Part shown: positions 18,203 to 33,317 of the stretch, piece by piece
Layout of the letters: each line of letters begins with the position of its first letter
Numbering within the stretch: the stretch's first letter is position 1
From: Gemmatimonadota bacterium
GTDB taxonomy: Bacteria; ARS69
DNA: 64,000 bases
Assembly: GCA_030747075.1 (NCBI GenBank)
Contig: JASLLL010000013.1
Location: 628 to 64,627 of the forward strand
Reading direction: 5' to 3'
Position numbers and translations under genes: made by a program
The notes under the pieces: model-generated
Database searches by the model: none
Seen by the model: the letters and a program-made list of their open reading frames with translations, nothing else
Told to the model about the DNA's origin: nothing

Positions 18203-18206
<4 letters not shown>

Positions 18207-19021
18207 TCGATCTGCACTGCCATATCCTCCCCGGACTCGACGATGGTGCCGCGGATGATCACCAGGCGCTGGCCATGGCGAGAGCGGCTGTGGACATGGG
18301 CATTCAGGAGGTGGCGGCCACTTCGCACTTCGGGTTCTTCTCGTTGTTCTCCGCAGACTCCGGGAGCATTCGCGCGGAGCGGGATCGTCTGGTAGAACTC
18401 GTTGCGGCCGAGGGGATTCCTCTGGAGATTCACCCCGGTGCGGAGAACTACTACGGGGAGATGGAGCCCGCAGAGTTTGCATCGCGGGCGATCCCTCTGG
18501 CGGAAGGCCCGTATGTACTCATGGACTTCTCTTTTCGGCGGGTCCCGGAGACTCTGGCGGAGGGTCTCGCCCGGCTTCGGCAGGGGGGGCGGATCCCTGT
18601 GATCGCTCACCCGGAGCGGAATCGGGAAGTTCAGCTGCTGCCGAAGATTGTGGTGGACTGGTTGGATGCGGGAGCCATGCTGCAGGTGAATGCCTCCAGC
18701 CTGACAGGACTGCTTGGCGAAGATGCACAGTTGGCGGCGGAGACACTTCTGGCTGCGGGAGCCGTGCAGATACTCGGCTCGGATGCACACGACCTCAGCC
18801 GACGCCCGTTCTGCCTGAGCGCGGGAGAGGCGGCGGCGGCGGACATCGTGGGAGCGGATGCAGCAGCACGAATGGTACGCGATACCCCCCGGGCCGTGTT
18901 GCGCGGGGAGAAGATAGAAGTTCGGAGCCCGGATTCGGATCGGCTGAGCGGAGGAGCATCGCTCTTCGACCGGATGTTCGGGCGGGGGCGGGGCCAGACC
19001 GAGCAAGGAGATCGAGAGTGA
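18203..19021 (+). CDS. PHP-family Mn-dependent protein-tyrosine phosphatase (CpsB/YwqE-like)
   Basis: MIDLHCHILPGLDDGAADDH...ATSHF PHP motifs; GTG start overlaps alaS stop. Confidence 0.8.
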
Positions 19022-20085
19022 AAGGCCTGATTCTCTCCGGAGGGAAGGGAACACGACTGAGACCCATCACGCACACGAGTGCCAAGCAACTGGTGCCGGT
19101 CGCGAACAAGCCGATCCTCTTCTTCGCCATTGAAGCCGTGCGCGACGCGGGGGTCGAGGAGATCGGGATCGTGGTGGGGGAGACGGGTGCGGAGATTCGC
19201 GCGGCCGTGGGGGACGGGTCCGCGTTCGGCGTGAAGATCACCTACATCCCGCAGGAGAATCCGCTCGGACTGGCGCACGCCGTCAAGGTCTCGCGGGACT
19301 TCCTCGGCGAGGATCCATTTGTGATGTTTCTGGGCGACAACCTCATCAAGGACGGGATCACCCCACTGGTGGACGAGTTCCGGCGAGACGGCCCGAACTC
19401 GCAGATCCTCCTCGCGAGCGTGCCCAACCCGTCGGAGTTCGGGGTGGCGGAGATTGCGGACGGGAAGGTCGTCGGGTTGGAAGAGAAACCCGCGCAGCCG
19501 AAGTCGGAGTTCGCGCTGGTGGGCGTCTACATGTTCGACCGGAGCATTCACGAGGCGGTGGACAACATCCAGCCTTCCGCACGGGGAGAACTGGAGATCA
19601 CCGATGCCATCCAGTATCTGATCGACCACGACTTCGATGTACGCAGCCATGTCATTCGTGGCTGGTGGAAGGACACCGGGAAACTGGAGGACATGCTGGA
19701 AGCCAACCGGATTGTGCTGAGCAGTCTGGAGCGACGCATCGACGGGGAAGTGGACGATCGGAGCCGTATCATCGGAGAGGTCGTCGTGGGGAAGGGGGCG
19801 CGTGTGGAAAACTCCGAACTTCGCGGGCCGCTTATCCTGGGAGAGGGTGCGGTCGTGAAGGACTCCTATGTCGGGCCGTTCACATCCATTTCGGATCAGT
19901 GCGAAGTGCTTTCGTCGGAGGTGGAGTTCTCCATCATCCTGAAGGGCGGGCGCGTCCACGATCTGGACCGGCGTATGGAAGGGAGTCTTGTGGGGCGCAA
20001 CGCCACCATCCTCTCTTCCGCCGTCCGTCCCCGGGCGTACCGGTTCATGGTGGGCGACAACTCCGAGGTCCGGGTCCCCCGATGA
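19018..20085 (+). CDS. rmlA: Glucose-1-phosphate thymidylyltransferase (long form with C-terminal left-handed beta-helix)
   Basis: MKGLILSGGKGTRLRPITHTSAKQLVPV nucleotidyltransferase motif; C-terminal hexapeptide repeats. Confidence 0.85.
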   Translation: MKGLILSGGKGTRLRPITHTSAKQLVPVANKPILFFAIEAVRDAGVEEIGIVVGETGAEIRAAVGDGSAFGVKITYIPQENPLGLAHAVKVSRDFLGEDPFVMFLGDNLIKDGITPLVDEFRRDGPNSQILLASVPNPSEFGVAEIADGKVVGLEEKPAQPKSEFALVGVYMFDRSIHEAVDNIQPSARGELEITDAIQYLIDHDFDVRSHVIRGWWKDTGKLEDMLEANRIVLSSLERRIDGEVDDRSRIIGEVVVGKGARVENSELRGPLILGEGAVVKDSYVGPFTSISDQCEVLSSEVEFSIILKGGRVHDLDRRMEGSLVGRNATILSSAVRPRAYRFMVGDNSEVRVPR

Positions 20086-20981
20086 GCGCCGAACGAGGCG
20101 GTGAGTCCGCATCTCAGGCGACGGTTCGCGTGGCGGCCACCGGGTGCGCGGGCATGCTCGGGAGGGAGCTGGGTGCAGAGGCTGCGGCGCGGGGCGTGCC
20201 GTTCACCGGGTGGGATCTTCCGGACTTTGACCTGACGGATCGAGAAGCCGTGATGCGGGAGATCGGGTCGGCGCGACCGGATGTGGTAATCCATGCCGCC
20301 GCATGGACGGATGTGGATGGCTGCGAGTCGAATCCTTCGAAGGCGTTTCTTGTGAACGGACGGGCCACGGCGCATGTCGTGGAGGCGTGCCGGGAAGCGG
20401 GGGCGCGCGTCGTCCATGTCTCCACGGACTATGTGTTCCCGGGAGACCTCGACCGCCCGTACCGCGAGGACGATCTGCCCGGTCCGCTTTCCGTCTACGG
20501 TTGGTCGAAACTTGCCGGGGAGGAAGCGGTCCGTTCGCTGGGGGACGCGGGTGCCATTGCGCGGACCGCCTGGCTGTATGCGGGCCACGGTGCGAACTTC
20601 CTCCGCACGATGCTGCGTCTCGGCCGGGAGAGGGATTCCCTGGCCGTGGTCGACGACCAGTTGGGTTCACCGACCTTTGCGGGAGATCTTGCGCGGGTGT
20701 TGCTTGATCTCGCGATCGAAGGCGGGAGCGGCACATTTCACACCACCAACACCGGTTCGGTCACCTGGCACGGCTTCGCCAGCGCCATCTTTGCGGCGGC
20801 CGGAATCGGCGTCGAAGTGAAGGCGGTGACGAGTGCGGACTTCCCCCGACCGGCTCACCGCCCCGCGAACTCCGTGTTGCTGGATTCCCGGCTTGCTGAT
20901 GCGGGGATTCATCCGATGCCGTCGTGGGAAGACGGGCTGGCCCGGTGCTTTGCGGGAATGGCGAAGGAAGGTGCGGCATGA
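20082..20981 (+). CDS. rmlD: dTDP-4-dehydrorhamnose reductase
   Basis: Rossmann TGCAGMLGREL, YxxxK, RmlD substrate-binding region; ATGA overlap with rmlA stop. Confidence 0.85.
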   Translation: MSAERGGESASQATVRVAATGCAGMLGRELGAEAAARGVPFTGWDLPDFDLTDREAVMREIGSARPDVVIHAAAWTDVDGCESNPSKAFLVNGRATAHVVEACREAGARVVHVSTDYVFPGDLDRPYREDDLPGPLSVYGWSKLAGEEAVRSLGDAGAIARTAWLYAGHGANFLRTMLRLGRERDSLAVVDDQLGSPTFAGDLARVLLDLAIEGGSGTFHTTNTGSVTWHGFASAIFAAAGIGVEVKAVTSADFPRPAHRPANSVLLDSRLADAGIHPMPSWEDGLARCFAGMAKEGAA

Positions 20982-21826
20982 CGGAAGACAGCGCGGCAGT
21001 CATCGCGGCCGGGCGCGCGGACTACGACTCGGCGGTTCGGCGCGGCCGGGCGATCGACGAACTGAGTGAGTTGTTCCGATTTCGCCATCTGGTCGTACAG
21101 CTCGTGAAGCGGAATGTCACCTCGCGGTACAAGCGGTCATTCCTGGGACTGGCGTGGACTCTCCTTGATCCACTCCTCACGATGGGCGTGATGGCTGCCG
21201 TGTATTCCGCGATTATCCGGGATCGGGTGGAGGCCTTCCCTGTCTACATCTTGTCCGGGCTGGTGATCTGGAATTTCTTCTCGCAGTCGAGCACTCAGGC
21301 GATCACCTACTTCCTGCACGGGCGGGCGCTCCTCGGGCGCGTGTACATGCCCAAGGCGACGATGGGGGTGGCGGCGGTCGGCACCGGTTTCGTCAACCTG
21401 GTGGCGTCCATCATTCCACTGATGGTGTTCATGGTGATCTTCCGATGCCAGTTCACTCCCGCGCTGCTCTTCGTGCCGGTCGCCATTCTGCTGGCGTCTG
21501 CATTCACGCTGGGTGTCGGGCTCCTGGTGTCCGCATGGTCGGTTTTCTTCGGAGACATGGAGAACATTTTCCGGTTTCTCCTGCGGCTGGCCATGTATCT
21601 GTCCGGGATTTTCTACTCGCTGGACATCCTGCCGGAGCAGCTGAGACGGGTTGTCTGGTGTATGCCGACCTATCATCTGATTGAACTGTTCCGATCCCCC
21701 GTTCACACCGGGACTCTCCCGGACGGTCAGAGCATTCTGATTGGAGTCGCATGGTCGCTGGGTTTCCTTCTCGCAGGTTTCGGGTACTTCGCACGAAAGT
21801 CGAATGCGTATGCATACCGACTCTGA
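20978..21826 (+). CDS. wzm: ABC-2 type polysaccharide export permease (Wzm/TagG/KpsM family)
   Basis: 6-TM ABC-2 permease, signature NVTSRYKRSFLGLAWTLLDP; ATGA overlap with rmlD. Confidence 0.85.
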   Translation: MTEDSAAVIAAGRADYDSAVRRGRAIDELSELFRFRHLVVQLVKRNVTSRYKRSFLGLAWTLLDPLLTMGVMAAVYSAIIRDRVEAFPVYILSGLVIWNFFSQSSTQAITYFLHGRALLGRVYMPKATMGVAAVGTGFVNLVASIIPLMVFMVIFRCQFTPALLFVPVAILLASAFTLGVGLLVSAWSVFFGDMENIFRFLLRLAMYLSGIFYSLDILPEQLRRVVWCMPTYHLIELFRSPVHTGTLPDGQSILIGVAWSLGFLLAGFGYFARKSNAYAYRL

Positions 21827-22625
21827 CAGCCCGCGCGTAGCGGAACAGGCGTCGGAGAGACCCCCGGCGCTTCTTCTGTCCGGAGTGTCGGTGGCTTTCG
21901 AATCGCACCGAACACCGGCGGCCACTCTGAAGGAACACCTGATCCGCTGGACCAAGCGGGATCTTGAGAAGAAGAGTGTCCGCGCTCTGGACGGACTGGA
22001 TCTGCGGGTGGATCGGGGAGAGGTGTTTGGGATCGTCGGGAGAAACGGGGCGGGGAAGAGCACTCTCCTGCGCGTGATTTCCGGCATCCTGCACCCGTCT
22101 CGGGGAAGGGTTCGAGTCTGGGGGAAGGTCACGCCGCTTCTCGGCGTCGGTGCCGGGTTCCACGGCGATCTGACCGGGCGGGAGAATATCGCGCTTTACT
22201 CGGCCATCCTCGGGCGAAGCCCGGAGCGTACCCGTGAGCTGGTGGACGACATCATCCGCTTCTCCGAACTTGCGGACTTTATCGACGCGCCGCTTCGCGT
22301 GTACTCCGCGGGCATGTCCGCACGGCTCGGATTCGCCGTCGCACTGGCCGAGTCGCCGGAGGTCCTTCTGGTTGATGAAGTGCTCGGCGTCGGGGACGAA
22401 CAGTTCCGCCGGAAGTGCCGGGACCGCTTTGAAGAGATCCGCAAGGCCGGCGCCACCATTGTCATCGTGACGCACTCGATGTCCGTTGCCAAAGAGATGT
22501 GCGACCGACTGGCGTGGATCGAGAATGGCAAGGTCCGCGAGTGCGGGACTTCCGAAGAAGTGGCCGCATCCTATGTGGAGTTCCAGAAGGCGGTTCGGAG
22601 CGCCTCCACGATCCGCCCCCGCTGA
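21804..22625 (+). CDS. wzt: Polysaccharide export ABC transporter ATP-binding protein (Wzt/TagH family, no C-terminal carbohydrate-binding domain)
   Basis: Walker A GRNGAGKST, ABC signature, about 270 aa NBD only; start overlaps wzm end. Confidence 0.85.
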   Translation: MRMHTDSDSPRVAEQASERPPALLLSGVSVAFESHRTPAATLKEHLIRWTKRDLEKKSVRALDGLDLRVDRGEVFGIVGRNGAGKSTLLRVISGILHPSRGRVRVWGKVTPLLGVGAGFHGDLTGRENIALYSAILGRSPERTRELVDDIIRFSELADFIDAPLRVYSAGMSARLGFAVALAESPEVLLVDEVLGVGDEQFRRKCRDRFEEIRKAGATIVIVTHSMSVAKEMCDRLAWIENGKVRECGTSEEVAASYVEFQKAVRSASTIRPR

Positions 22626-22788
22626 TCGGAACCGCACTTCTCGCTCGCGGACGGGGCGAGCCGGGTCGCGGGCGGCCGCTTGACTCGGCTCCTTTCGCGT
22701 GGGAGCATCGCTCGACCCGGCCACTGATTCCCACCGTTCTGCGCAGCCCGGGCAGGTTCCCCGAGAGCCTGTGCGGAGGAGGCGCCCC

Positions 22789-25700
22789 TTGCGACCCGTG
22801 ATTCTCGTGCTTGGCATGCATCGAAGCGGCACTTCCGCAGTGGCGGGGGCCGTACGGATGCTCGGCGTAGACCTCGGGGATTCGCTGATGCCGGGACGCG
22901 CGGGGGAGAACCCACAGGGTTTCTTCGAAGACACCCGCGTCATGGCCGCCAACGAGAACATTCTGGAGTCCGCAGCGTCCTCGTGGGATGACCCCTTTGG
23001 AATCGATCCGGGCTGGTTTGATTCGGATGAAGGGAAGCCCCATGCGCGAGACCTTTCATCGCTTCTCGTGGGGATGTTCCCGGAGGATGCGCTGTGCGGA
23101 GTGAAAGACCCGCGCATCTGTCGGTTGCTTCCCGTGTGGACGGCCGCACTGGAGCAGGCGGGACTCGCGCCCCATGTCCTTCTGGTGACCAGGCCTTGCG
23201 CGGAGGTCGCCGATTCGCTGGCTCGAAGGAACGGCTTCTCGCGTGAGAAGTCGGCCTTCCTCTGGGCCGACCATGTCCTTCGGGCGGAGGAGGGGACGCG
23301 GAGGATCCCGCGAGTGTTCCTGCCCTATGCGGACCTGCTGGAGAATCCCGCCGGGGTGCTGGCCGGAGCGGGACACGCTCTGGGAATCACCTGGCCGGTA
23401 TCTCCGGAGGCGGCCTCGACACGGCTGCGCGCATTTGTCACCGGCGAGCTTCGGCACCACCGGGTCGGGGACGCGGAGAAGTCGCATCGTCGCGCAGACG
23501 GATTCGTGCGGGAACTGGATCTGCTGCTGGAAAGCGTCGCGGGCGGTTGCGGCGGCGGCGGCACGACCCGGTTTGACCGAATGGCGGAGCAAGTGGCGGC
23601 CGTCCTTCCCCGAATGGATCCGCTCTGGCAGGAACACTTGAGCCGTGGCGTCCGGGTGGCGGATCAAGTTGCGGGGCTGGAACAGACCTTGTCCGATCGG
23701 ACCGAGTGGCTGCGTGCGTCGGCGGAGGAAGTGAAGAGTCTTCGGGCCGCCGTGGAGGAGATGCGCAACGCCGGATCCAAAGACGCGACCCGCCTGCGGG
23801 TGGAAGTGGAGGAGATTCGCGCCGCGACGCTGGATGTCGGCCGGCGCGTGGATCGTCTGGACTTCTTCCGGCTTGGCATGCGACTGGTCCGGTTCTCTCG
23901 ACGGGTGGCGGGCCGCCTGGTGCGCGGCGCGGCGCGGCGAAGGAGCGCCCTTCACGGCAGACTCCGCGACGCATTCCTGAAGCGGCCGGTGACCCGCGCG
24001 CGAGTGACTGGGATTGCACTGCCTCAGCATGAACATCCGGATGTCTCGATCATCATCCCCGTGTTCAACCAGACGGGTCATACCGTCCGGTGCCTGGAAT
24101 CGCTGGCGGCATTGCGGGAGGAGACCTCCTTCGAGGTGGTCCTGGTGGATGACGCCTCCACGGCCGCGTCGATTGGCCTGCTGGCGTCGGTAAGGTCGAT
24201 CCGACTCGTGCGAAACGAACGCAATCTCGGGTTTGTGCATTCGTGCAATCGGGGCGCGAAGGAGGCGAAGGGGCGGCACCTTCTCTTCCTGAACAACGAC
24301 ACGCGCGTGGAGCCGGGTTTCCTGGACCGGCTTCGGGCCTCTTTGGAGGAGTTCCCGGATGCGGGGATTGTGGGTGCCCAACTGGTGTACCCGGACGGCC
24401 GCCTGCAGGAATCGGGCGGGATCGTCTGGGAGGACGCCAGTGCGTGGAATTACGGTCACGGGAGAGACCCGTCCGCACCGGAGGTTTCGTATCTTCGCGA
24501 AGTCGATTACTGCTCCGGTGCATGCATCCTGGTGGACCGGAGTCTGTTCAACGAACTGGGCGGGTTCGATGAGCGGTACGCTCCCGCCTACTACGAAGAT
24601 GTGGATCTTGCTTTTCGCGTTCGCGAGGCCGGTCGACGCGTGCTTGTCAACCCTGTGGCGCGTGTCATTCATTGCGAAGGTGCCACTTCCGGTACGGACC
24701 CGGAGAGTGGTGTGAAGCGGTACCAGGTGCGCAACCAGCAGATCTTCCTGGATCGATGGCGGAAGGAACTTGGCTGCCACGGCCGAAACGGGGAAGACCC
24801 GGAACGGGCGAAGGAGCGGAAGGCCCGTTCCCGCGTCCTCGTCATCGACCACCGTATGCCGACTCCCGATCAGGACGCGGGATCGCAGCGAATCCAATGG
24901 ATGATGCGGATTCTTCGCGACCTCGGCCATCGAGTGACCTTTCTGCCCGACAATCTACTCCCGTCCGAACCCTACGGGGCAGACCTTCGCGCGCTGGGCG
25001 TGGAGGTATGGCAGTCACCGCACCTCAGGACGATCCGCCACTTCCTGGAGTGCCGGGGGAGCGAGTTCGATCTTGTGATTCTGAGCCGTCTGGGTACGGC
25101 GGGAACTCATATCGATGATGTGCGGAGGCTCTGTCCGCGGGCGCGGGTCGTCTTCGATACGGTGGACCTGCACTTTCTTCGTGAAGAGCGGGCCGCAGAG
25201 TTGACCGGGAGTGCCGCCGATCTCGCGGCCGCGCGGGAGACACGCACGCGGGAACTCTCGGTGGCCCGCCGTGCGCACGAGACGCTGGTCGTCAGTGAAG
25301 AGGAACGCGAACTCATCCAGAGCATCGATCCGAATCTCGCCGTGCGTATCGTCCCCACCATCCACGAGACTTCCGCGTCCGGGCTTCCATTCGAGGAGCG
25401 GCACGGACTTCTCTTCGTGGGGGGGTTCGAGCATCCGCCCAATGCTGATGGCGTCCGGTGGTTCGTGGAGACCGTGCTGCCGATGGTACGGGAGGAACTG
25501 CCGGATGTTTCGCTTCGGATCGTGGGCAGCAAGCCGACACCGGAGATGGATGCTCTCGCGGGACGGGGCGTGGATGTCGCCGGGTGGGTGCCGGATCTCG
25601 AAGCGCTTCTCCGCGAGTCCCGGGTATCCATCGCGCCGCTCCGGTTTGGCGCCGGGGTGAAGGGGAAAGTCTGCGAGAGCCTCGCGCACGGGTTGCCGAC

Positions 25701-25971
25701 CGTGGGAACGAGCATCGCCTGCGAGGGGATGGCGCTCACTCATCGAACAGACATCTGCATCGCGGACACGGCGCACGACTTCGCGCGGGAAGTGGTGCGT
25801 CTGCATCAGGATCGTGCCTTGTGGACGCAGTTGGCCTCAGCGGGGCAGGAAGTGATCCGGAACCGGTTCTCTCCCGCCGTAGCCAGGGACGCACTTCGAC
25901 GACTGGGGCGCGGCCCCGCCGAATCCCCCCGGGGGGGACTCCTGGCGGTGGAAGCCCAACTACTCTCATGA
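22789..25971 (+). CDS. Multidomain glycan-modifying enzyme: sulfotransferase - coiled-coil - GT2 - GT4(GT-B)
   Basis: N-term PAPS 5'-PSB motif GMHRSGTS and 3'-PB-like VKDPR; central heptad-rich helix; GT2 (VSIIIPVFN...VVLVDDAS); C-terminal GT4 with E-x7-E (GVKGKVCESLAHGLP). TTG start with GGAGGA RBS. Confidence 0.8.
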   Translation: MRPVILVLGMHRSGTSAVAGAVRMLGVDLGDSLMPGRAGENPQGFFEDTRVMAANENILESAASSWDDPFGIDPGWFDSDEGKPHARDLSSLLVGMFPEDALCGVKDPRICRLLPVWTAALEQAGLAPHVLLVTRPCAEVADSLARRNGFSREKSAFLWADHVLRAEEGTRRIPRVFLPYADLLENPAGVLAGAGHALGITWPVSPEAASTRLRAFVTGELRHHRVGDAEKSHRRADGFVRELDLLLESVAGGCGGGGTTRFDRMAEQVAAVLPRMDPLWQEHLSRGVRVADQVAGLEQTLSDRTEWLRASAEEVKSLRAAVEEMRNAGSKDATRLRVEVEEIRAATLDVGRRVDRLDFFRLGMRLVRFSRRVAGRLVRGAARRRSALHGRLRDAFLKRPVTRARVTGIALPQHEHPDVSIIIPVFNQTGHTVRCLESLAALREETSFEVVLVDDASTAASIGLLASVRSIRLVRNERNLGFVHSCNRGAKEAKGRHLLFLNNDTRVEPGFLDRLRASLEEFPDAGIVGAQLVYPDGRLQESGGIVWEDASAWNYGHGRDPSAPEVSYLREVDYCSGACILVDRSLFNELGGFDERYAPAYYEDVDLAFRVREAGRRVLVNPVARVIHCEGATSGTDPESGVKRYQVRNQQIFLDRWRKELGCHGRNGEDPERAKERKARSRVLVIDHRMPTPDQDAGSQRIQWMMRILRDLGHRVTFLPDNLLPSEPYGADLRALGVEVWQSPHLRTIRHFLECRGSEFDLVILSRLGTAGTHIDDVRRLCPRARVVFDTVDLHFLREERAAELTGSAADLAAARETRTRELSVARRAHETLVVSEEERELIQSIDPNLAVRIVPTIHETSASGLPFEERHGLLFVGGFEHPPNADGVRWFVETVLPMVREELPDVSLRIVGSKPTPEMDALAGRGVDVAGWVPDLEALLRESRVSIAPLRFGAGVKGKVCESLAHGLPTVGTSIACEGMALTHRTDICIADTAHDFAREVVRLHQDRALWTQLASAGQEVIRNRFSPAVARDALRRLGRGPAESPRGGLLAVEAQLLS

Positions 25972-25987
25972 CAGGAGGCGACCAGAA

Positions 25988-27451
25988 ATGGCATTGACCG
26001 CACTGGCCGGTCCACCCGGAGTGGGGAAGACCACCCACCTCATTGGAAGGCTCGAGGACGCGCAGAATGCCGGGAATCCCACGGCGCTCTTTTTGTGCAG
26101 CGACTCGGACGATCTTCGATCGCGCCCGAATGTCCGGGAAGGCGGCACCATGGGATGTCGCACTCCCGGGATGGGCGCGACCATTGACCACTTCGTTTCG
26201 GCAGCGGAAGCAGGCCGTATCCTCTCGGAACTTCCCGCCGGGAGCCTGGCGGCCTTCGACGAAGCGGCGTGGTTCGGTGTGGACATCGTGGAGGCGTGGA
26301 TCGAAGCGGAGCGGCGAGGAGTGGATGTCGTGGTGTCTTCGCTCTCCGAGCAGCAGGTGGCAATCCTGAAAGAGCGAAGCTACCCGGTCACGCGGCTTAC
26401 CGTACCCTGCATGCTTTGCGGGAAGGACCGGGGGCGTCACTCGCACGAACTGTTCCACACGGCGGAGCGCGGTTTCGTCGTGGTGTGCGATGCCTGTCGC
26501 GAGGCGGTCGCCAGGAACCAATGCCGATCGGAACCTTCTTCTCTGGATGGTGAACTCTGCGAGGAGCTCACTTCGGAACTCAGGCGCATGAAGCCCTTCC
26601 CGGGAAAGGAGCACGCGTATCAGCCGGTCTTCGGGTTGGACCTCCCGGGCTGGGAACTGGTGCGGGGAGACACGCCGATTCGCGCGGACCTCATTCGAGA
26701 GGTGCTGGAGGCGGCCTTCCCGGCGTGGAGCGCGTCATCGAGGGCGGGCGAAGCCGACGGTCGTCCCAGCTTCATCGATCTGGGATGCTGCACCGGGTTT
26801 TTCTGCGAGTACTTTGCGGCGCGGGGATGGGAGGCCTGGGGGCTGGACATCGACGAGGACTTCATCGCGCTGGCTCGGCGCGTGTCACAGGCTCTTGGAA
26901 GCGGAGTGGAGTACTGCCAGTCCGCGCTTCTTCCCCATGTGCAGGGCCATCCCGGCGCCCGGTTTGATGTGACCACTTCGTTCGCGACCGTGCAGTGGGT
27001 GATCGCCCAGAGCGGTCTGGATGCGGGGCTGGAGTGCTTCGACTGGATCTTCGGCGCGGCGCGGAAGATGTGTGTTCTTGAGATGGGCTACTCGGAAGAG
27101 GAGATCTACCGGGAGAAGCTGCCCGTGCGCATCGACCGCGAGTGGGTTGAAGAACTCATGCGAACCCGTGGAGGATTCGACGAGGTTCTCGTGATTCCGA
27201 AGGGATCGCGGGGCGTCTGGCGAGATCTCTTCATCGGTCTGAAGGATCCGGAAGTGTGCGGAGTGACCGTGTCCGGGGAGGGCGCGGCCGAACCGGGCCG
27301 ACCCGCGCCCGTATGGAACGCGGCCGGTATTCTAGGGCTGGCAGCGCGTGCCGTGCGAAACCCGGGGCGCGTCGTGCAACTGGGCGGGAAGGCCGTACAG
27401 GATCCGGCGAGGGCGATGCGCGAACTGGGGCGGCGGTTGCGCGGCGGTTGA
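25988..27451 (+). CDS. Fusion protein: thymidine-kinase-fold P-loop + Zn-ribbon domain / class I SAM-dependent methyltransferase
   Basis: N-term GPPGVGKTT (Walker A), FDEAAWF (TK Walker B-like), CMLCG...CDAC zinc ribbon in TK order; C-term motif I IDLGCCTG and post-I acidic residue; AGGAGG RBS. Confidence 0.7.
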   Translation: MALTALAGPPGVGKTTHLIGRLEDAQNAGNPTALFLCSDSDDLRSRPNVREGGTMGCRTPGMGATIDHFVSAAEAGRILSELPAGSLAAFDEAAWFGVDIVEAWIEAERRGVDVVVSSLSEQQVAILKERSYPVTRLTVPCMLCGKDRGRHSHELFHTAERGFVVVCDACREAVARNQCRSEPSSLDGELCEELTSELRRMKPFPGKEHAYQPVFGLDLPGWELVRGDTPIRADLIREVLEAAFPAWSASSRAGEADGRPSFIDLGCCTGFFCEYFAARGWEAWGLDIDEDFIALARRVSQALGSGVEYCQSALLPHVQGHPGARFDVTTSFATVQWVIAQSGLDAGLECFDWIFGAARKMCVLEMGYSEEEIYREKLPVRIDREWVEELMRTRGGFDEVLVIPKGSRGVWRDLFIGLKDPEVCGVTVSGEGAAEPGRPAPVWNAAGILGLAARAVRNPGRVVQLGGKAVQDPARAMRELGRRLRGG

Positions 27452-27459
27452 TCGTTCGT

Positions 27460-29106
27460 TCACCGAAGCGTGGACGCCAGCCTCGCGCGATGCGGATCCA
27501 GGAAGGGGCATTCGGACTCCCGGTTCATCGCGATCGGGAGCAGCGGGTCTTCCGTCAGGCGCGATCTCCACCGCTGCCGCATGGTGATGACTTCCCGCGG
27601 GTCAAGGAGACGGCTGCGGGTGCGGGTCTCGTGGTGGATCAACTCGGCACGCGGCTCGTACAGAATCCGCCCTCCGCGCTGAGTCAGCCGGAGGCACAGG
27701 TCGACATCGTTGAACGAGACGGGCAGATCTCCGGCGTCGAGTCCCCCCAACTCCTCAAAGGCGCCGCGACGAACCAGGAGGCAGGCGGCGGTGGCCGCCG
27801 AGACTTCCCGTGCGGTACGAGCTCCGGTTCCCGGAAAAACCTCGCGCCCTCCCGAAGAACCCCACTCCCGACCCAGATGACCCGCGACCGTGCCGATCCC
27901 GAGCCCAATGCCCGCGTGCTGGCAGGTGCCGTCGGGATAGAGCAGCCGCGCGCCCACCGCGTCCACGCCCGGCCAGTGCATGGCGGCGACGAGGTGCGTG
28001 AGCCATGCGCCGTCGATCGCTTCCGTGTCGTTGTTGAGCATCAGGAGGAAGTCCCCGCTCGCTTCCGCTGCGGCTGTGTTCGTGATCCGGGCGAAGTTGA
28101 AGGAGCCTCCCTCGCGAATCACGCGTACCCCGGCGTGCTTTTCGGCCTCTTCCAGCAGGTGAAGCGCACGCGGATCTGTCGTGAGGTGATCCACCAGAAT
28201 CACCTCGTGACGGACTCCGCCATCCAGCCGCTCGATGGAGTTGAGGAGTCGGCCGAGCAGGTCCGGCTGATCTCGCGTCGGGATCAGGAGGGACACGAGG
28301 GGGTCGGCATCGATCCGGGGGTGGATGCTCAGTGTCTCCGGATCGTCTCCCGCACTCACCGGGGCCGCCGTCCCCCGATCGGCGAGAAACGATGCCACCG
28401 CATCCATCCGCCCGCGCAGAGGGCCGAAGAGCGGGTCGTCGTCGCGCTCCGGCCGACGAAGGACCGGCAGCGGCAGGTGGCGCACAGCGTCGGCTTCGTC
28501 GGTCGCCCGAAGAAGCACATCGGTCCAGTCGGCTCCCTCCCGCAGTCGTCTTGAGGCAGCCTGCGCGGGGATGGCGGTCGCGGCGCCCGGGAACCTACCG
28601 GGGTGCGTCAGCGCGAGAAGCGGACTCCACGCCGGCTTGAGATCACCTCGGAGGGAGCCACCGGGAGCAAGCCGGACTTCGTCCGCGTACAGCACACCGC
28701 CCTCGTCGAGATCGGCAATGTGCCCAAGCCACGCATTTCCCGAATCGGACACGAACTCGTCGCCCGCAGCCAGCGCGACCCACCTCTCGCCGGGACGCTC
28801 CACGGCGGGAGGCGCCTCCCCGCGGCACACATCACTTGCGGGGAGACCGGCGCCGAGGAGCGAATCCCGGGTTCGCTGTTCGTCCCCCTCTCCGAAGAGC
28901 AGGACGCGGACGGGGGCCGGGGAGCGACAAACGCGAACCGCGGGACGCGCCCGGGCCACGGCGGACAGCCATCGCCGGATCTGTTCAGCCTCGGTGCGCC
29001 GCTGCTCGATGCGGCCGCGGAGGCGTCGCACGATTCTGCCGAACGCATGGAACCCCTCGGCGCGAATGAGAGTGCGGGCTGCGCGCACGCGGTGAAGAAG
29101 GTTCAC
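27460..29106 (-). CDS. Glycosyltransferase family 2 with about 300-aa N-terminal domain of unknown function
   Basis: C-terminal GT2: LVSLLIPTRDQPDLL...VILVDHLTTD...MLNNDTEA...; start chosen as GTG 4 nt after upstream GT4 stop (could extend to 29424). Confidence 0.7.
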   Translation of the reverse strand: MNLLHRVRAARTLIRAEGFHAFGRIVRRLRGRIEQRRTEAEQIRRWLSAVARARPAVRVCRSPAPVRVLLFGEGDEQRTRDSLLGAGLPASDVCRGEAPPAVERPGERWVALAAGDEFVSDSGNAWLGHIADLDEGGVLYADEVRLAPGGSLRGDLKPAWSPLLALTHPGRFPGAATAIPAQAASRRLREGADWTDVLLRATDEADAVRHLPLPVLRRPERDDDPLFGPLRGRMDAVASFLADRGTAAPVSAGDDPETLSIHPRIDADPLVSLLIPTRDQPDLLGRLLNSIERLDGGVRHEVILVDHLTTDPRALHLLEEAEKHAGVRVIREGGSFNFARITNTAAAEASGDFLLMLNNDTEAIDGAWLTHLVAAMHWPGVDAVGARLLYPDGTCQHAGIGLGIGTVAGHLGREWGSSGGREVFPGTGARTAREVSAATAACLLVRRGAFEELGGLDAGDLPVSFNDVDLCLRLTQRGGRILYEPRAELIHHETRTRSRLLDPREVITMRQRWRSRLTEDPLLPIAMNRESECPFLDPHRARLASTLR

Positions 29107-29110
29107 GGGT

Positions 29111-30223
29111 TCATCTCCCCGCCGCCCTGCGATATCCGTCCCGCGTCGCCCGCGCAGTTTCCGCCCAGTCGAAGAGGGCGGCGCGGGCCGGGCCGAGTGC
29201 CGCGAGTTCCCCGCGACGGCGGTCGTCCATCCAGAGCCGCGCGAGGGCATCCGCAAGCGCACGGGCGGTCTCCACCGATGCAAACGCGGCCGCGTCGCCC
29301 AGGACTTCGCGATGCGGAGGGATGTCGCTGGCGAGCACCGGCCCGCCGCAGGCCGCCGCTTCCAGCGCGGGGAGCCCGAAGCCTTCGCATCGCGAGGGAA
29401 CGAGTACCAGTCTCGCTCCGGCATACAGAAGCGGAAGGTCGGTGTCGGTTACGGGACACAGGATGCGGACGCGCGAAACCCCCGCGGCAATGGGTTCCAG
29501 TCTGGCGCGGGTTTCGTGATCGCGTGCCGGGATGACGAGTTCCGCGTCGGCGAGTCCCGCGGCGCGAAACGCACGGAGCGCGCCGTCGAGATTCTTGTGG
29601 GGCCGATGCGAAGCGACGCAGAGGAGGAAGGGCCGTGTGAGACCCCGACCCGCCAGGAACTCCGTCACGCTCTCAGGCGATGGCGGAGCGAACACAGGCG
29701 CAACGGCGTGGGGGATCACCGTGAACCGGTCGGCCGGAGCGCGAAGGCACCGGGTCAGCTCCGCCCGGGCCGCTTCCGAGCCGGTGAAGAGAACGGCGGA
29801 CGACCGGATCGACCACGCCATCATGATGCGGGCGTAGAGCCGGTGGAGCGGAGAGCGGGGGAAGAGCAAGTGGATGGGGTCATGCATCGTGACCACCACG
29901 CGGCACCCGGGAGCCGCCGAGCGCACATAGTGCGGGAAGTGCAGAACATCGAGCTGATGCCGGCTTGCCGCGCCACGGAAGGCCGCCAGTTCCTTCACGC
30001 TGTAGAGCGGCGCACGGCATTGCGCCAGCCGGAAGCGCTCCGGGTCGAGGAGTTCAGGCAGTCCCCCCGGAAGCGCACGGAGATCCGGCTCCGGAAGAAA
30101 GAGCGTGTACCGCTCCGGACCGTGGAGTCCGGCGAGCCCCGTGAGGAGTCCCTCAAGGTATCGTCCGATTCCGAAGTCGCGGATCTTGCGCGCATCGATG
30201 CCGATGTGCAGCGGAGCAGTCAT
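29111..30223 (-). CDS. Glycosyltransferase family 4 (GT-B)
   Basis: GT4 C-terminal domain with EGFGLPALEAAACGGPVL (E-x7-E); ATG overlaps stop of upstream GT4 (ATGA). Confidence 0.8.
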   Translation of the reverse strand: MTAPLHIGIDARKIRDFGIGRYLEGLLTGLAGLHGPERYTLFLPEPDLRALPGGLPELLDPERFRLAQCRAPLYSVKELAAFRGAASRHQLDVLHFPHYVRSAAPGCRVVVTMHDPIHLLFPRSPLHRLYARIMMAWSIRSSAVLFTGSEAARAELTRCLRAPADRFTVIPHAVAPVFAPPSPESVTEFLAGRGLTRPFLLCVASHRPHKNLDGALRAFRAAGLADAELVIPARDHETRARLEPIAAGVSRVRILCPVTDTDLPLLYAGARLVLVPSRCEGFGLPALEAAACGGPVLASDIPPHREVLGDAAAFASVETARALADALARLWMDDRRRGELAALGPARAALFDWAETARATRDGYRRAAGR

Positions 30224-32623: not shown

Positions 32624-32735
32624 CCTTCCGACGCTGGGCGTCTTGACACGGGTGCGACGCGGGTGGGACTCTGGCATGGGTTTCCGGGAACCCCGGACCG
32701 GGGTGACTCCGGAACGGGGCCGGGGAGGGGGAGTC

Positions 32736-33317
32736 ATGGACATCGACGGAATCCGGGAGTCCATGACGGAGACCGTGCGCGTGCTGGAGCGTCTCCGGGA
32801 CGAGACCGCTCCGGCAGTGGCCGCCGTCTCCGAGGAGCTTGTTCGGTGTGTGACGGCCGGTGGGCGCATCCTGGTCTGCGGCAATGGAGGGAGCGCGGCG
32901 GACTCCCAGCACATGGCCACGGAACTCACGGTCCGGTTCCGGAAGCAGCGCCGTGCGATTTCCGCGCTTGCCCTCACGGTGGATTCCTCGGTGCTTACCG
33001 CAGCTTCCAACGATCTGGGCTTCGCGAAGGTGTTCAGTCGCCAGGTGGAAGCTCACGGGAAGGCGGGAGATGTGCTGATCGCGATCTCCACCAGTGGGAA
33101 CTCACCGAATGTGGTGGAGGCGGTCCGTGAGGCCCGCGTGCGGGGACTGGTCACCGTGGCGCTCACGGGAGCGGCGGGGGGGGCGCTTGCCTCGGAAGTG
33201 GACCACTGGATCGGCGTGCCTTCCGAAGAGACTCCACAGATTCAGGAAGCGCATCTCGTGGTGGAACACCTGCTCTGCGAAGCCATGGAAGACGCGGTGG
33301 CGGAGGATGCGCCGTGA
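32736..33317 (+). CDS. gmhA: D-sedoheptulose-7-phosphate isomerase (SIS domain)
   Basis: GGRILVCGNGGSAADSQHMATE...ISTSGNSPNV GmhA signature. Confidence 0.85.
   Translation: MDIDGIRESMTETVRVLERLRDETAPAVAAVSEELVRCVTAGGRILVCGNGGSAADSQHMATELTVRFRKQRRAISALALTVDSSVLTAASNDLGFAKVFSRQVEAHGKAGDVLIAISTSGNSPNVVEAVREARVRGLVTVALTGAAGGALASEVDHWIGVPSEETPQIQEAHLVVEHLLCEAMEDAVAEDAP

What the first reader, a model, noticed from the sequence alone, without database searches (positions are those of the whole stretch)
25988..27451. Thymidine-kinase-fold P-loop + zinc-ribbon domain fused to a SAM methyltransferase: candidate non-canonical chain-terminating kinase/methyltransferase
The first about 170 aa reproduce the thymidine-kinase order of elements: Walker A GPPGVGKTT, the Mg/acceptor motif FDEAAWF, a lasso-like segment and the Zn ribbon CxxC...CxxC (CMLCG...CDAC). 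The C-terminal about 300 aa are a class I MTase (motif I IDLGCCTG).

In the E. coli O9a system the terminator WbdD is a kinase + methyltransferase that caps the polymer with methyl-phosphate. This protein sits directly after wzm/wzt and the polymerase-like enzyme. It could be an analogous capping enzyme built from an unrelated (nucleoside-kinase) kinase fold. The putative polymerase, not this protein, carries the long coiled coil. Wzt lacks a cap-binding CBM.
Basis: inference. Interest (0 to 1): 0.7.

Follow-up and report, generated by a model that had tools for sequence, protein, structure and literature searches.

The report
Thymidine-kinase-fold kinase fused to WbdD-like methyltransferase
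This gene encodes a rare two-part enzyme, a kinase module built on the thymidine-kinase fold joined to a methyltransferase closest to the E. coli O-antigen capping enzyme WbdD; it sits in cell-surface sugar-polymer gene clusters and probably adds a phosphate and a methyl group to that polymer.

Summary
ORF 25988-27451 (+, 487 aa, strong RBS) has an N-terminal domain (aa 1-180) whose nearest relatives by profile and by fold are type-II thymidine kinases. It keeps the Walker A, the D91-E92 catalytic pair and four zinc cysteines. It has lost the thymidine-binding segments and fails the TK family thresholds, so it is TK-fold but not a TK.

The fusion family is rare: about 60 clusters in 1.84 billion representatives and one hit in 185,579 species genomes. 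Eleven of 12 independent loci are glycan loci, usually with a GT2-GT4 polymerase, Wzm/Wzt and sulfotransferases.

The enzyme is most likely a kinase/methyltransferase acting on the glycan, possibly making a methyl-phosphate. Whether it is the chain terminator is open. I rate it a new variant of a known kind.

The parts
25973..25978 (+). Shine-Dalgarno AGGAGG, 9 nt upstream of the ATG
   Evidence: Read directly from the sequence. It supports the start at 25988; the public gene call P0001 starts at Met62 and so loses the Walker A.
25988..27451 (+). Whole ORF, 487 aa: TK-fold kinase-like domain fused to a WbdD-type SAM methyltransferase ('TKMT')
   Evidence: ORF listing; the start is shared by homologues P0002-P0009; AF2 model with pLDDT 76.8.
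25988..26527 (+). N-terminal TK1-fold P-loop domain, aa 1-180
   Evidence: Profile against PDB gives TKs as best hits at E 2.4e-6. Foldseek finds TKs with TM 0.69-0.74. Alignment with PF00265-positive TKs.
26009..26035 (+). Walker A GPPGVGKTT, aa 8-16
   Evidence: G8, G13 and K14 are invariant in 31 of 31 distant family members and in true TKs.
26255..26278 (+). FDEAAWFG, aa 90-97; D91-E92 correspond to the TK DE(G)QFF motif with the catalytic glutamate
   Evidence: D/E91 in 31 of 31, E92 in 28 of 31 and F96 in 28 of 31 members; the motif aligns with the TK motif.
26408..26497 (+). Zinc ribbon CxxC...CxxC (C141, C144, C167, C170) enclosing a shortened lasso remnant
   Evidence: The four Cys are invariant in close relatives and present in 25-29 of 31 distant ones. 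They align with the TK zinc cysteines. The loop is 6-8 residues shorter than in TKs and has pLDDT 55-77.
26579..26695 (+). Conserved N-terminal extension of the methyltransferase, aa 198-236 (KPFPGxxHAYQP...W..VR.D...RADLI)
   Evidence: It aligns with WbdD residues 14-40: Y211 to Y16, R226 to R31, R232 to R36. These are conserved in 26-29 of 31 members.
26759..27247 (+). Class I SAM methyltransferase core, aa 258-420. Motif I is IDLGCCTG; D287 matches WbdD D82; Q336-W337 sit at the WbdD H132-H133 positions; R412-D413 sit before the last strand, with R412 matching WbdD R203.
27374..27448 (+). C-terminal tail: a short hairpin plus a basic helix (..RAMRELGRRLRGG) after a disordered linker. It may be a docking or membrane-binding element (inference).
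   Evidence: AF2 secondary structure, aa 463-485. The motif is conserved in P0002-P0004.
22699..25971 (+). Upstream partner, 1090 aa: sulfotransferase-fold domain (aa about 30-281), long helices or coiled coil (about 288-428), GT2 (447-664) and GT4 (900-1060)
   Evidence: Pfam GT2 and GT4 hits. More than 1238 homologues of the N-domain, many carrying PF13469. AF2 model at pLDDT 83.6. Foldseek best hits are TPST, CurM-ST and Stf0. The helical region matches only coiled coils in PDB. Homologues of its modules flank TKMT in L001, L005, L006, L008, L009 and L017.
20924..21826 (+). wzm (ABC-2 permease)
   Evidence: PF01061 at E 5e-18.
21741..22625 (+). wzt (ABC ATPase, at most 294 aa, no carbohydrate-binding module)
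   Evidence: PF00005 over aa 83-214 with no further domain. By comparison, E. coli O9 Wzt is 431 aa.

Best explanation
TKMT is a soluble bifunctional glycan-modifying enzyme of an ABC-transporter-dependent (Wzm/Wzt) polysaccharide pathway. It acts on the rhamnose-related polymer made by the adjacent GT2-GT4 polymerase.

Proposed mechanism:
- The N-terminal domain is an ATP-dependent phosphotransferase derived from the TK1 fold. It keeps the phosphate-donor and catalytic machinery (Walker A Lys14, Asp91, Glu92 as general base, structural zinc). The thymidine-binding lid has been replaced by a new conserved acceptor surface (R46, GGxMGxR58, H68, Q123). It phosphorylates a sugar hydroxyl, most likely on the non-reducing end of the undecaprenyl-linked glycan.
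- The C-terminal WbdD-type methyltransferase then methylates that phosphate, giving a methyl-phosphate group as WbdD does. Less likely, it methylates a neighbouring hydroxyl.
- The enzyme has no ruler of its own. It probably works beside the neighbouring sulfotransferase-coiled-coil-polymerase protein, perhaps docking through its C-terminal basic helix. The glycan end would then receive sulfate and/or methyl-phosphate.

What is shown: the domain folds, the homologies, the residue conservation and the gene neighbourhood. What is inferred: kinase activity, the acceptor, methylation of phosphate, and any role in termination.
For: - TK fold with catalytic residues conserved across a divergent family: K14 in 31 of 31, D/E91 in 31 of 31, E92 in 28 of 31, four Cys in 25-29 of 31.
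- The thymidine-binding elements are deleted, and new family-specific invariant residues appear in the acceptor region.
- WbdD Y16 and R203 are both essential for phosphate methylation, and R203 is absent from sugar O-methyltransferases and from O8 WbdD (PMC3482155). They map to invariant Y211 and R412. WbdD's anion-pocket residues R31, R36 and F194 map to R226, R232 and F397.
- 32 of 48 longer relatives of the N-domain carry the methyltransferase fusion.
- 11 of 12 independent loci are glycan loci. Wzm/Wzt are adjacent in 4, GT2-GT4 polymerase homologues in 7 and sulfotransferases in 7.
- There is precedent that methyl-phosphate terminators recruit unrelated kinase modules: WbdD uses an ePK-like kinase and K. 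pneumoniae O7 ORF6 an AmiN-like one, the latter capping a terminal rhamnose (PMC11231755).
Against: - WbdD His132/His133, which are essential for phosphate methylation, are Gln336/Trp337 here, and N34/Q35/H197 of the anion pocket are not kept.
- The TK DxR hairpin motif (D42/R44) is not conserved in the wider family.
- TKMT has no coiled coil, and domain order is kinase then methyltransferase, the reverse of WbdD.
- Wzt has no cap-reading CBM in the window, L006, L011 or the P0004 contig.
- The ruler-bearing neighbour already has a plausible terminator, a sulfotransferase with intact 5'-PSB and 3'-PB motifs.
- Most sulfotransferase-coiled-coil/GT2-GT4 systems lack TKMT, so it is an add-on rather than the core terminator.
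- To my knowledge no TK1-fold enzyme is known to use a non-nucleoside acceptor.
- No biochemical data exist.
Confidence: 0.5

Rival explanations
1. TKMT decorates the glycan but does not make methyl-phosphate. The methyltransferase O-methylates a sugar hydroxyl directly, as E. coli O8 WbdD and other terminal O-methyltransferases do. The TK-fold domain phosphorylates a different position or serves as an ATP-binding regulatory or recruitment module. Chain termination is done by the sulfotransferase on the neighbour's coiled coil.
For: - The His-His pair that WbdD O9a needs for a phosphate nucleophile is absent, replaced by Q336/W337 (PMC3482155).
- The coiled-coil protein carries an intact sulfotransferase at the terminator position.
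- TKMT is missing from most related sulfotransferase-coiled-coil/GT2-GT4 loci, some of which have a plain methyltransferase instead, as in L014.
- Wzt has no CBM.
Against: - R412 and Y211 occupy the WbdD R203 and Y16 positions. R203 has no equivalent in O8 WbdD or in sugar O-methyltransferases (PMC3482155).
- The Arg pair of the anion pocket is conserved.
- A strictly conserved fusion of a catalytically intact kinase to this methyltransferase in at least 31 divergent members argues for coupled chemistry.
Confidence: 0.27
2. The TK-fold domain acts on a nucleotide rather than on the glycan. One example would be an APS 3'-kinase or PAP-related kinase that feeds the co-located PAPS-dependent sulfotransferases. 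The methyltransferase would cap or decorate the glycan independently.
For: - The domain descends from a nucleoside kinase.
- Sulfotransferase-family genes are fused or adjacent in 7 of 12 loci: window, L001, L004, L005, L006, L008 and L011.
- No cysC/cysDN genes were found among the locus genes scanned.
Against: - All nucleoside-binding elements of TK are deleted.
- Distant members L016 and L017 show no detectable sulfotransferase but still have the GT2-GT4 polymerase.
- The vast majority of homologous sulfotransferase systems manage without TKMT.
- This reading gives no rationale for an obligatory fusion to a WbdD-like methyltransferase.
Confidence: 0.08
3. It is an ordinary thymidine kinase (nucleotide salvage) that happens to be fused to a methyltransferase.
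For: A weak NCBIfam thymidine kinase hit (E 0.013), and JGI labels one homologue 'methyltransferase/thymidine kinase'.
Against: - The NCBIfam hit scores 15.6 bits against a cut-off of 183.
- There is no PF00265 hit even at E up to 10.
- The thymidine-binding segments are deleted.
- The gene is always found in glycan loci.
Confidence: 0.01

Closest known systems
WbdD of E. coli O9a / K. pneumoniae O3 (bifunctional methyltransferase-kinase chain terminator; PDB 4azs, 4uw0)
   Same: - It combines a kinase and a SAM methyltransferase in one polypeptide and is encoded next to wzm/wzt and the polymerase.
- They share the N-terminal extension (Y16 to Y211), the anion-pocket arginines (R31/R36 to R226/R232), the SAM-binding Asp (D82 to D287), the E..EE..Y motif (E160-Y169 to E365-Y374) and R203 to R412.
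   Different: - The kinase is a TK1-fold P-loop domain with a zinc ribbon, not a eukaryotic-like protein kinase.
- Domain order is reversed.
- There is no C-terminal coiled coil or membrane-anchoring region.
- H132/H133 are replaced by Q/W.
- The partner Wzt has no CBM.
- The polymer is rhamnose-related rather than polymannose.
ORF6 of K. pneumoniae O7 (methyltransferase + AmiN-like kinase + CBM + coiled coil + GT2; PMC11231755)
   Same: - It shows that methyl-phosphate capping of a terminal rhamnose can use a kinase module unrelated to WbdD's.
- It works in an ABC-transporter-dependent pathway.
- A multi-module protein combines the ruler and the polymerase GT, much as the window's 1090-aa neighbour does.
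   Different: - The ORF6 kinase resembles aminoglycoside/amicoumacin kinases and its methyltransferase is CgnL-like.
- Both of its catalytic modules sit on the coiled-coil protein.
- Here the kinase-methyltransferase is a separate protein, and the coiled-coil protein carries a sulfotransferase instead.
- I did not have the ORF6 sequence, so no direct comparison was made.
Type II (TK1-like) thymidine kinases, PF00265 (e.g. T. maritima 2qq0, T. brucei 5fuv, B. cereus 2ja1)
   Same: The fold matches (TM 0.69-0.74), as do the Walker A, the D-E catalytic pair followed by an aromatic residue, and the four-Cys zinc ribbon in the same order and spacing.
   Different: - The FxxxPFG base-stacking segment is missing, and so are the lasso Arg and GG..Y.
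- An 8-residue GGxMGCRTPG insertion is present.
- The protein scores below all TK family thresholds.
- It is fused to a methyltransferase and located in glycan loci.
WbbB of Raoultella terrigena / K. pneumoniae O12 (terminator - coiled coil - polymerase GTs in one chain). This comparison concerns the neighbouring 1090-aa protein.
   Same: The architecture is a terminal catalytic domain, a coiled coil and two GT modules in a Wzm/Wzt locus. The comparison with WbbB rests on my own knowledge of Williams et al. 2017 and was not re-read here.
   Different: The terminal domain here is a PAPS-sulfotransferase fold rather than a GT99 Kdo transferase.

Membership tests
Thymidine kinase, TK1 type (PF00265 / NF003296) | P-loop GxxxxGK[ST] | tested here: met
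   GPPGVGKTT at aa 8-16 aligns with the TK P-loop. G8, G13 and K14 are invariant.
Thymidine kinase, TK1 type (PF00265 / NF003296) | Catalytic Asp-Glu of the DE(G)QFF motif | tested here: met
   FDEAAWF at aa 90-96. E92 is invariant in the joint alignment with real TKs, and D91 is nearly so.
Thymidine kinase, TK1 type (PF00265 / NF003296) | Structural zinc site of four Cys (CxxC...CxxC) | tested here: met
   C141, C144, C167 and C170 are invariant and align with the TK cysteines. Metal binding itself cannot be tested here.
Thymidine kinase, TK1 type (PF00265 / NF003296) | Thymidine-binding elements: the lasso loop with its Arg and GG..Y, and the D.D....PFG segment | tested here: not met
   There is a 7-residue deletion after aa 118-123. 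The lasso is 6-8 residues shorter and has no conserved Arg or GG..Y. The region has low pLDDT.
Thymidine kinase, TK1 type (PF00265 / NF003296) | Score above the curated family thresholds | tested here: not met
   No PF00265 hit at E up to 10. NF003296 scores 15.6 bits against a cut-off of 183.
Thymidine kinase, TK1 type (PF00265 / NF003296) | Overall fold | tested here: met
   Foldseek matches 2qq0 (TM 0.74), 2ja1 (0.69) and 1xx6 (0.71), with E about 1e-8.
WbdD (O9a-type kinase/methyltransferase terminator) | WbdD-type class I methyltransferase with an N-terminal extension carrying Tyr16 | tested here: met
WbdD (O9a-type kinase/methyltransferase terminator) | Phosphate-nucleophile residues His132, His133 and Arg203 | tested here: inconclusive
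   R203 maps to invariant R412. H132/H133 map to invariant Q336/W337 (MAFFT mapping; conservation). One of the three residues is kept.
WbdD (O9a-type kinase/methyltransferase terminator) | Anion (sulphate) pocket R31, C33, N34, Q35, R36, F194, D195, H197 | tested here: inconclusive
   R226, R232, F397 and D398 are kept. The N34, Q35 and H197 positions are P230, I231 and V400.
WbdD (O9a-type kinase/methyltransferase terminator) | Eukaryotic-like (Hanks/APH-type) kinase domain | tested here: not met
   There are no Pkinase or APH hits. The only other folded domain is TK-like.
WbdD (O9a-type kinase/methyltransferase terminator) | Coiled-coil molecular ruler in the same polypeptide | tested here: not met
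   The AF2 model has no long helices. The coiled coil lies in the upstream 1090-aa protein.
WbdD (O9a-type kinase/methyltransferase terminator) | Cognate Wzt with a C-terminal cap-binding CBM | tested here: not met
   The window Wzt is at most 294 aa and contains only the ABC domain. The same holds in L006, L011 and the P0004 contig.
WbdD (O9a-type kinase/methyltransferase terminator) | Product is methyl-phosphate on the non-reducing terminal sugar, which stops polymerisation | not testable with these tools
   This needs enzyme assays and NMR/MS of the glycan.
K. pneumoniae O7 ORF6-type terminator | CgnL-like methyltransferase, AmiN-like kinase, Ig-like CBM and coiled coil on one chain | not tested
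From the paper's description (PMC11231755) the kinase fold and the architecture differ from TKMT.

The most novel reading that the evidence does not exclude
TKMT would be the first TK1-fold enzyme that phosphorylates a carbohydrate polymer instead of a nucleoside. It would also be a third, independently recruited kinase fold for methyl-phosphate capping of ABC-transporter-dependent glycans. It would operate together with a previously undescribed terminator, a sulfotransferase mounted on the coiled-coil ruler of the polymerase. The chain end would then carry a combined sulfate and methyl-phosphate signature in a system whose Wzt has no cap reader.
Probability: 0.35. Interest if true: 0.75.

Novelty: new variant of a known kind. 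Interest (0 to 1): 0.6.

Why it matters
Methyl-phosphate capping by WbdD is the textbook model for how bacteria measure and stop O-antigen chains. A second, unrelated kinase partner was found only in 2024, in K. pneumoniae O7.

A WbdD-type methyltransferase welded to a thymidine-kinase-fold domain would show that the cap chemistry has been reinvented at least three times with different kinase scaffolds. It would also extend the TK1 fold, thought to be restricted to nucleosides, to glycan acceptors.

The conserved neighbourhood also points to a large (more than 1,200 proteins) and apparently undescribed class of sulfotransferase-on-a-ruler proteins. These may terminate glycans with sulfate in environmental bacteria.

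Both ideas can be tested directly with recombinant proteins, and both are relevant to engineering site-specific phosphorylation or sulfation of polysaccharides.

Tried and rejected
- Single-sequence Pfam and PDB searches of the N-domain gave only marginal AAA/NPHP3 hits and a weak NCBIfam TK hit. The TK relationship became significant only with a family profile.
- A scan of 185,579 species genomes gave one locus (L006, a Rhodospirillaceae MAG). The metagenome scan gave three. The family is too rare for statistical phylogenetic profiling.
- A word-indexed search with the methyltransferase-domain profile returned only family members. I could not ask whether the nearest outside methyltransferases are kinase-associated.
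- The 120-aa C-terminal extension of subfamily P0005-P0008 has no Pfam match.
- A sequence profile of the neighbour's N-domain hit only coiled coils in PDB. Its sulfotransferase identity needed precomputed Pfam hits on homologues plus AF2 and Foldseek.
- Literature searches for a thymidine-kinase-like domain in glycan termination, or for sulfotransferase terminators, found nothing. The library is incomplete, so this is weak evidence of novelty.
- The 'true thymidine kinase' reading was rejected.
- Any RNA or repeat feature was rejected. Rfam and tRNA scans show only ordinary tRNAs and SRP RNA elsewhere in the window.
- L010 is the one context without visible glycan genes (an RTX protein and an MBL hydrolase on a 5-kb contig).
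Full report
**Observation**

An AGGAGG box lies 9 nt upstream of the ATG. Homologues from other sources begin at the same position.

The public JGI call of the identical gene (P0001) starts at Met62 and so lacks the Walker A. That call appears to be mis-started.

All quoted motifs are present at aa 8-16 (GPPGVGKTT), 90-96 (FDEAAWF), 141-144 (CMLC), 167-170 (CDAC) and 263-270 (IDLGCCTG).

**N-terminal domain**

A single-sequence Pfam scan sees nothing significant. NCBIfam gives only a sub-threshold thymidine kinase hit: E 0.013, 15.6 bits against a cut-off of 183.

With a profile of nine family members the picture becomes clear:
- The best PDB hits are type-II thymidine kinases. T. brucei 5fuv scores E 2.4e-6, aligned over aa 7-171 against 9-176 of 182. 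Others are 2ja1, 4uxh, 1xx6, 8y7w and 3e2i.
- An exhaustive HMMER scan of 1.84 billion representatives gives 109 hits. The tail consists of bona fide TKs (PF00265 E 1e-31 to 1e-44) found at E about 1e-6 to 1e-7.
- The AF2 model (pLDDT 76.8, N-domain mostly 85-96) matches T. maritima, B. cereus and C. acetobutylicum TKs with TM 0.69-0.74.

In a joint alignment with real TKs, G8, G13, K14, E92, F96 and the four cysteines are invariant, and D91 nearly so.

The family differs from TKs in three ways:
- It lacks the FxxxPFG segment that stacks on thymine.
- It lacks the lasso Arg and the GG..Y element.
- It has an 8-residue insertion, GGxMGCRTPG.

So it is a TK-fold phosphotransferase-type domain that is not a thymidine kinase.

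Across 31 more distant fusion proteins the donor and catalytic residues remain conserved: K14 in 31 of 31, D/E91 in 31 of 31, E92 in 28 of 31, R58 in 29 of 31 and Q123 in 30 of 31. This argues for a catalytically active module with a new acceptor.

**C-terminal domain**

Pfam places a class I methyltransferase at aa 261-340. WbdD's methyltransferase domain is the closest solved structure by every method used:
- phmmer E 6e-4
- family profile E 1.2e-9, about ten-fold ahead of the next methyltransferase
- hhalign 96.4% over 179 columns
- Foldseek ranks 1-5

I retrieved WbdD from E. coli HS and mapped residues with MAFFT:

| WbdD residue | TKMT residue |
|---|---|
| Y16 | Y211 |
| R31 | R226 |
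| R36 | R232 |
| D82 | D287 |
| E160..Y169 | E365..Y374 |
| F194 | F397 |
| R203 | R412 |
| H132 / H133 | Q336 / W337 |

The WbdD structure paper shows that Y16F, H132A, H133A and R203A each abolish phosphate methylation. It also shows that R203, H132 and H133 have no equivalent in the O8 enzyme or in sugar O-methyltransferases, and that R31, R36 and F194 line a WbdD-specific anion pocket (PMC3482155).

TKMT therefore keeps Y16, R203 and the arginine pair, all conserved across the wider family. It replaces the His pair with an equally conserved Gln-Trp. This is suggestive of an anionic (phosphate) substrate but is not proof.

**Distribution and context**

The fusion family is rare:
- 9 clusters at 44-55% identity among 5.8 billion proteins
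- 62 representative proteins (one per 50%-identity cluster) at E below 1e-10 among 1.84 billion
- one locus in 185,579 species genomes

Of 48 longer N-domain relatives, 32 carry the methyltransferase.

The window locus spans about 18.2-34.9 kb. In order it holds:
- a CpsB-type phosphatase, rmlA and rmlD
- wzm and wzt
- a 1090-aa multi-domain protein, then TKMT
- a GT2 and three GT4 genes
- a SIS isomerase and a Bac_transf initiating transferase

The flanks are housekeeping genes.

Twelve independent loci carry a TKMT homologue:
- 11 are glycan loci.
- 4 show Wzm/Wzt next to it (window, L006, L011, P0004 contig).
- 7 have a homologue of the GT2-GT4 part of the 1090-aa protein (window, L001, L006, L008, L009, L016, L017).
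- 7 have sulfotransferase-family genes (window, L001, L004, L005, L006, L008, L011).

**The neighbour**

Its first 280 or so residues belong to a family of more than 1238 proteins, many with PF13469.
- AF2 (pLDDT 83.6) gives a PAPS-sulfotransferase fold followed by about 140 residues of long helices.
- Foldseek finds TPST, CurM-ST, Stf0 and 3-OST as best hits.
- The 5'-PSB loop GMHRSGTS and an R-x7-S 3'-PB motif are conserved.
- The closest stand-alone relatives (about 460 aa, sulfotransferase plus coiled coil) sit next to a roughly 700-aa GT2-GT4 protein in glycan loci that lack TKMT.

In known ABC-transporter-dependent systems the terminator activity sits on the coiled-coil protein (PMC11231755). 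By that rule the sulfotransferase is at the terminator position here, and TKMT is a rarer add-on.

**Interpretation**

The best-supported reading is that TKMT is a bifunctional kinase/methyltransferase acting on the glycan made by the GT2-GT4 polymerase, probably at its non-reducing end.
- The most likely product is methyl-phosphate, by analogy with and partial homology to WbdD.
- There is precedent in K. pneumoniae O7 that the kinase partner can be replaced by an unrelated fold, there capping a terminal rhamnose.
- I put this at about 0.5.

The main rival, at about 0.27, is direct O-methylation with a separate or regulatory role for the P-loop domain, with the sulfotransferase as the real terminator. 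A nucleotide-directed kinase serving sulfation is possible but poorly supported (0.08). A true thymidine kinase is excluded for practical purposes.

Points that weaken the WbdD analogy:
- the missing His pair
- no coiled coil in TKMT
- reversed domain order
- Wzt without a CBM in every locus where it is visible

**Novelty**

No paper in the searchable library links a TK-like domain to glycan termination or describes sulfotransferase terminators. That library is incomplete.

I classify TKMT as a new variant of a known kind, a kinase/methyltransferase glycan-capping enzyme with a non-homologous kinase. Interest is 0.6. It would be higher if the glycan-kinase activity of a TK fold and the sulfotransferase-on-ruler terminator were confirmed.

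Noticed in passing
window 22699-25971 (+): The 1090-aa neighbour has a PAPS-sulfotransferase-fold domain (aa about 30-281, intact 5'-PSB and 3'-PB motifs). This is followed by about 140 residues of coiled-coil-like helices and then GT2 and GT4 modules. The architecture is WbbB-like, with a sulfotransferase where the terminator normally sits. The domain has more than 1238 relatives, usually split into a sulfotransferase-coiled-coil protein and a GT2-GT4 protein. No literature on such terminators was found.
   Followed up: partly
P0005-P0008 (e.g. L001:1881-3482, L004:867-2492, L011:1160-2818), C-terminal 120 or so aa: One TKMT subfamily replaces the short basic C-terminal tail with an extra domain of about 120 aa (motif G.W.DGW.G; predicted beta-rich from its sequence). 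It has no Pfam match and may be a carbohydrate-binding module.
   Followed up: partly
L006:10097-12133: In the Rhodospirillaceae MAG locus the Wzm permease is fused to a roughly 400-aa N-terminal TPR region (678 aa in total). This is unusual for O-antigen ABC-2 permeases.
   Followed up: no
window 25988-26170; L013:1023-2303: The public (JGI) gene call for the identical protein starts at Met62. It omits the Walker A and annotates the protein only as a SAM-dependent methyltransferase. The upstream ATG with its AGGAGG box and the homologues show that the longer ORF is correct.
   Followed up: yes
window 18203-19021 (+): A CpsB/CapC-type (PHP) phosphotyrosine phosphatase gene opens the glycan locus directly after alaS. 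No Wzc/CapB-type tyrosine kinase was seen among the locus genes I scanned.
   Followed up: no
window 19018-20981 and 32643-33317: rmlA and rmlD are present, but no rmlB or rmlC was recognised in the locus. A lone GmhA-like SIS isomerase sits next to the initiating transferase. The sugar-precursor pathway therefore looks incomplete within the locus. The distant locus L017 has a full heptose set next to its TKMT.
   Followed up: no
window 27460-29424 (-): The 654-aa GT2 protein immediately downstream, in convergent orientation, has about 370 N-terminal residues with no Pfam match.
   Followed up: no
L010:2-2002: This is the only TKMT context without glycan genes. A serralysin-C/RTX-repeat protein lies upstream and a metallo-beta-lactamase-fold protein downstream, on a 5-kb hydrothermal-vent contig.
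   Followed up: partly
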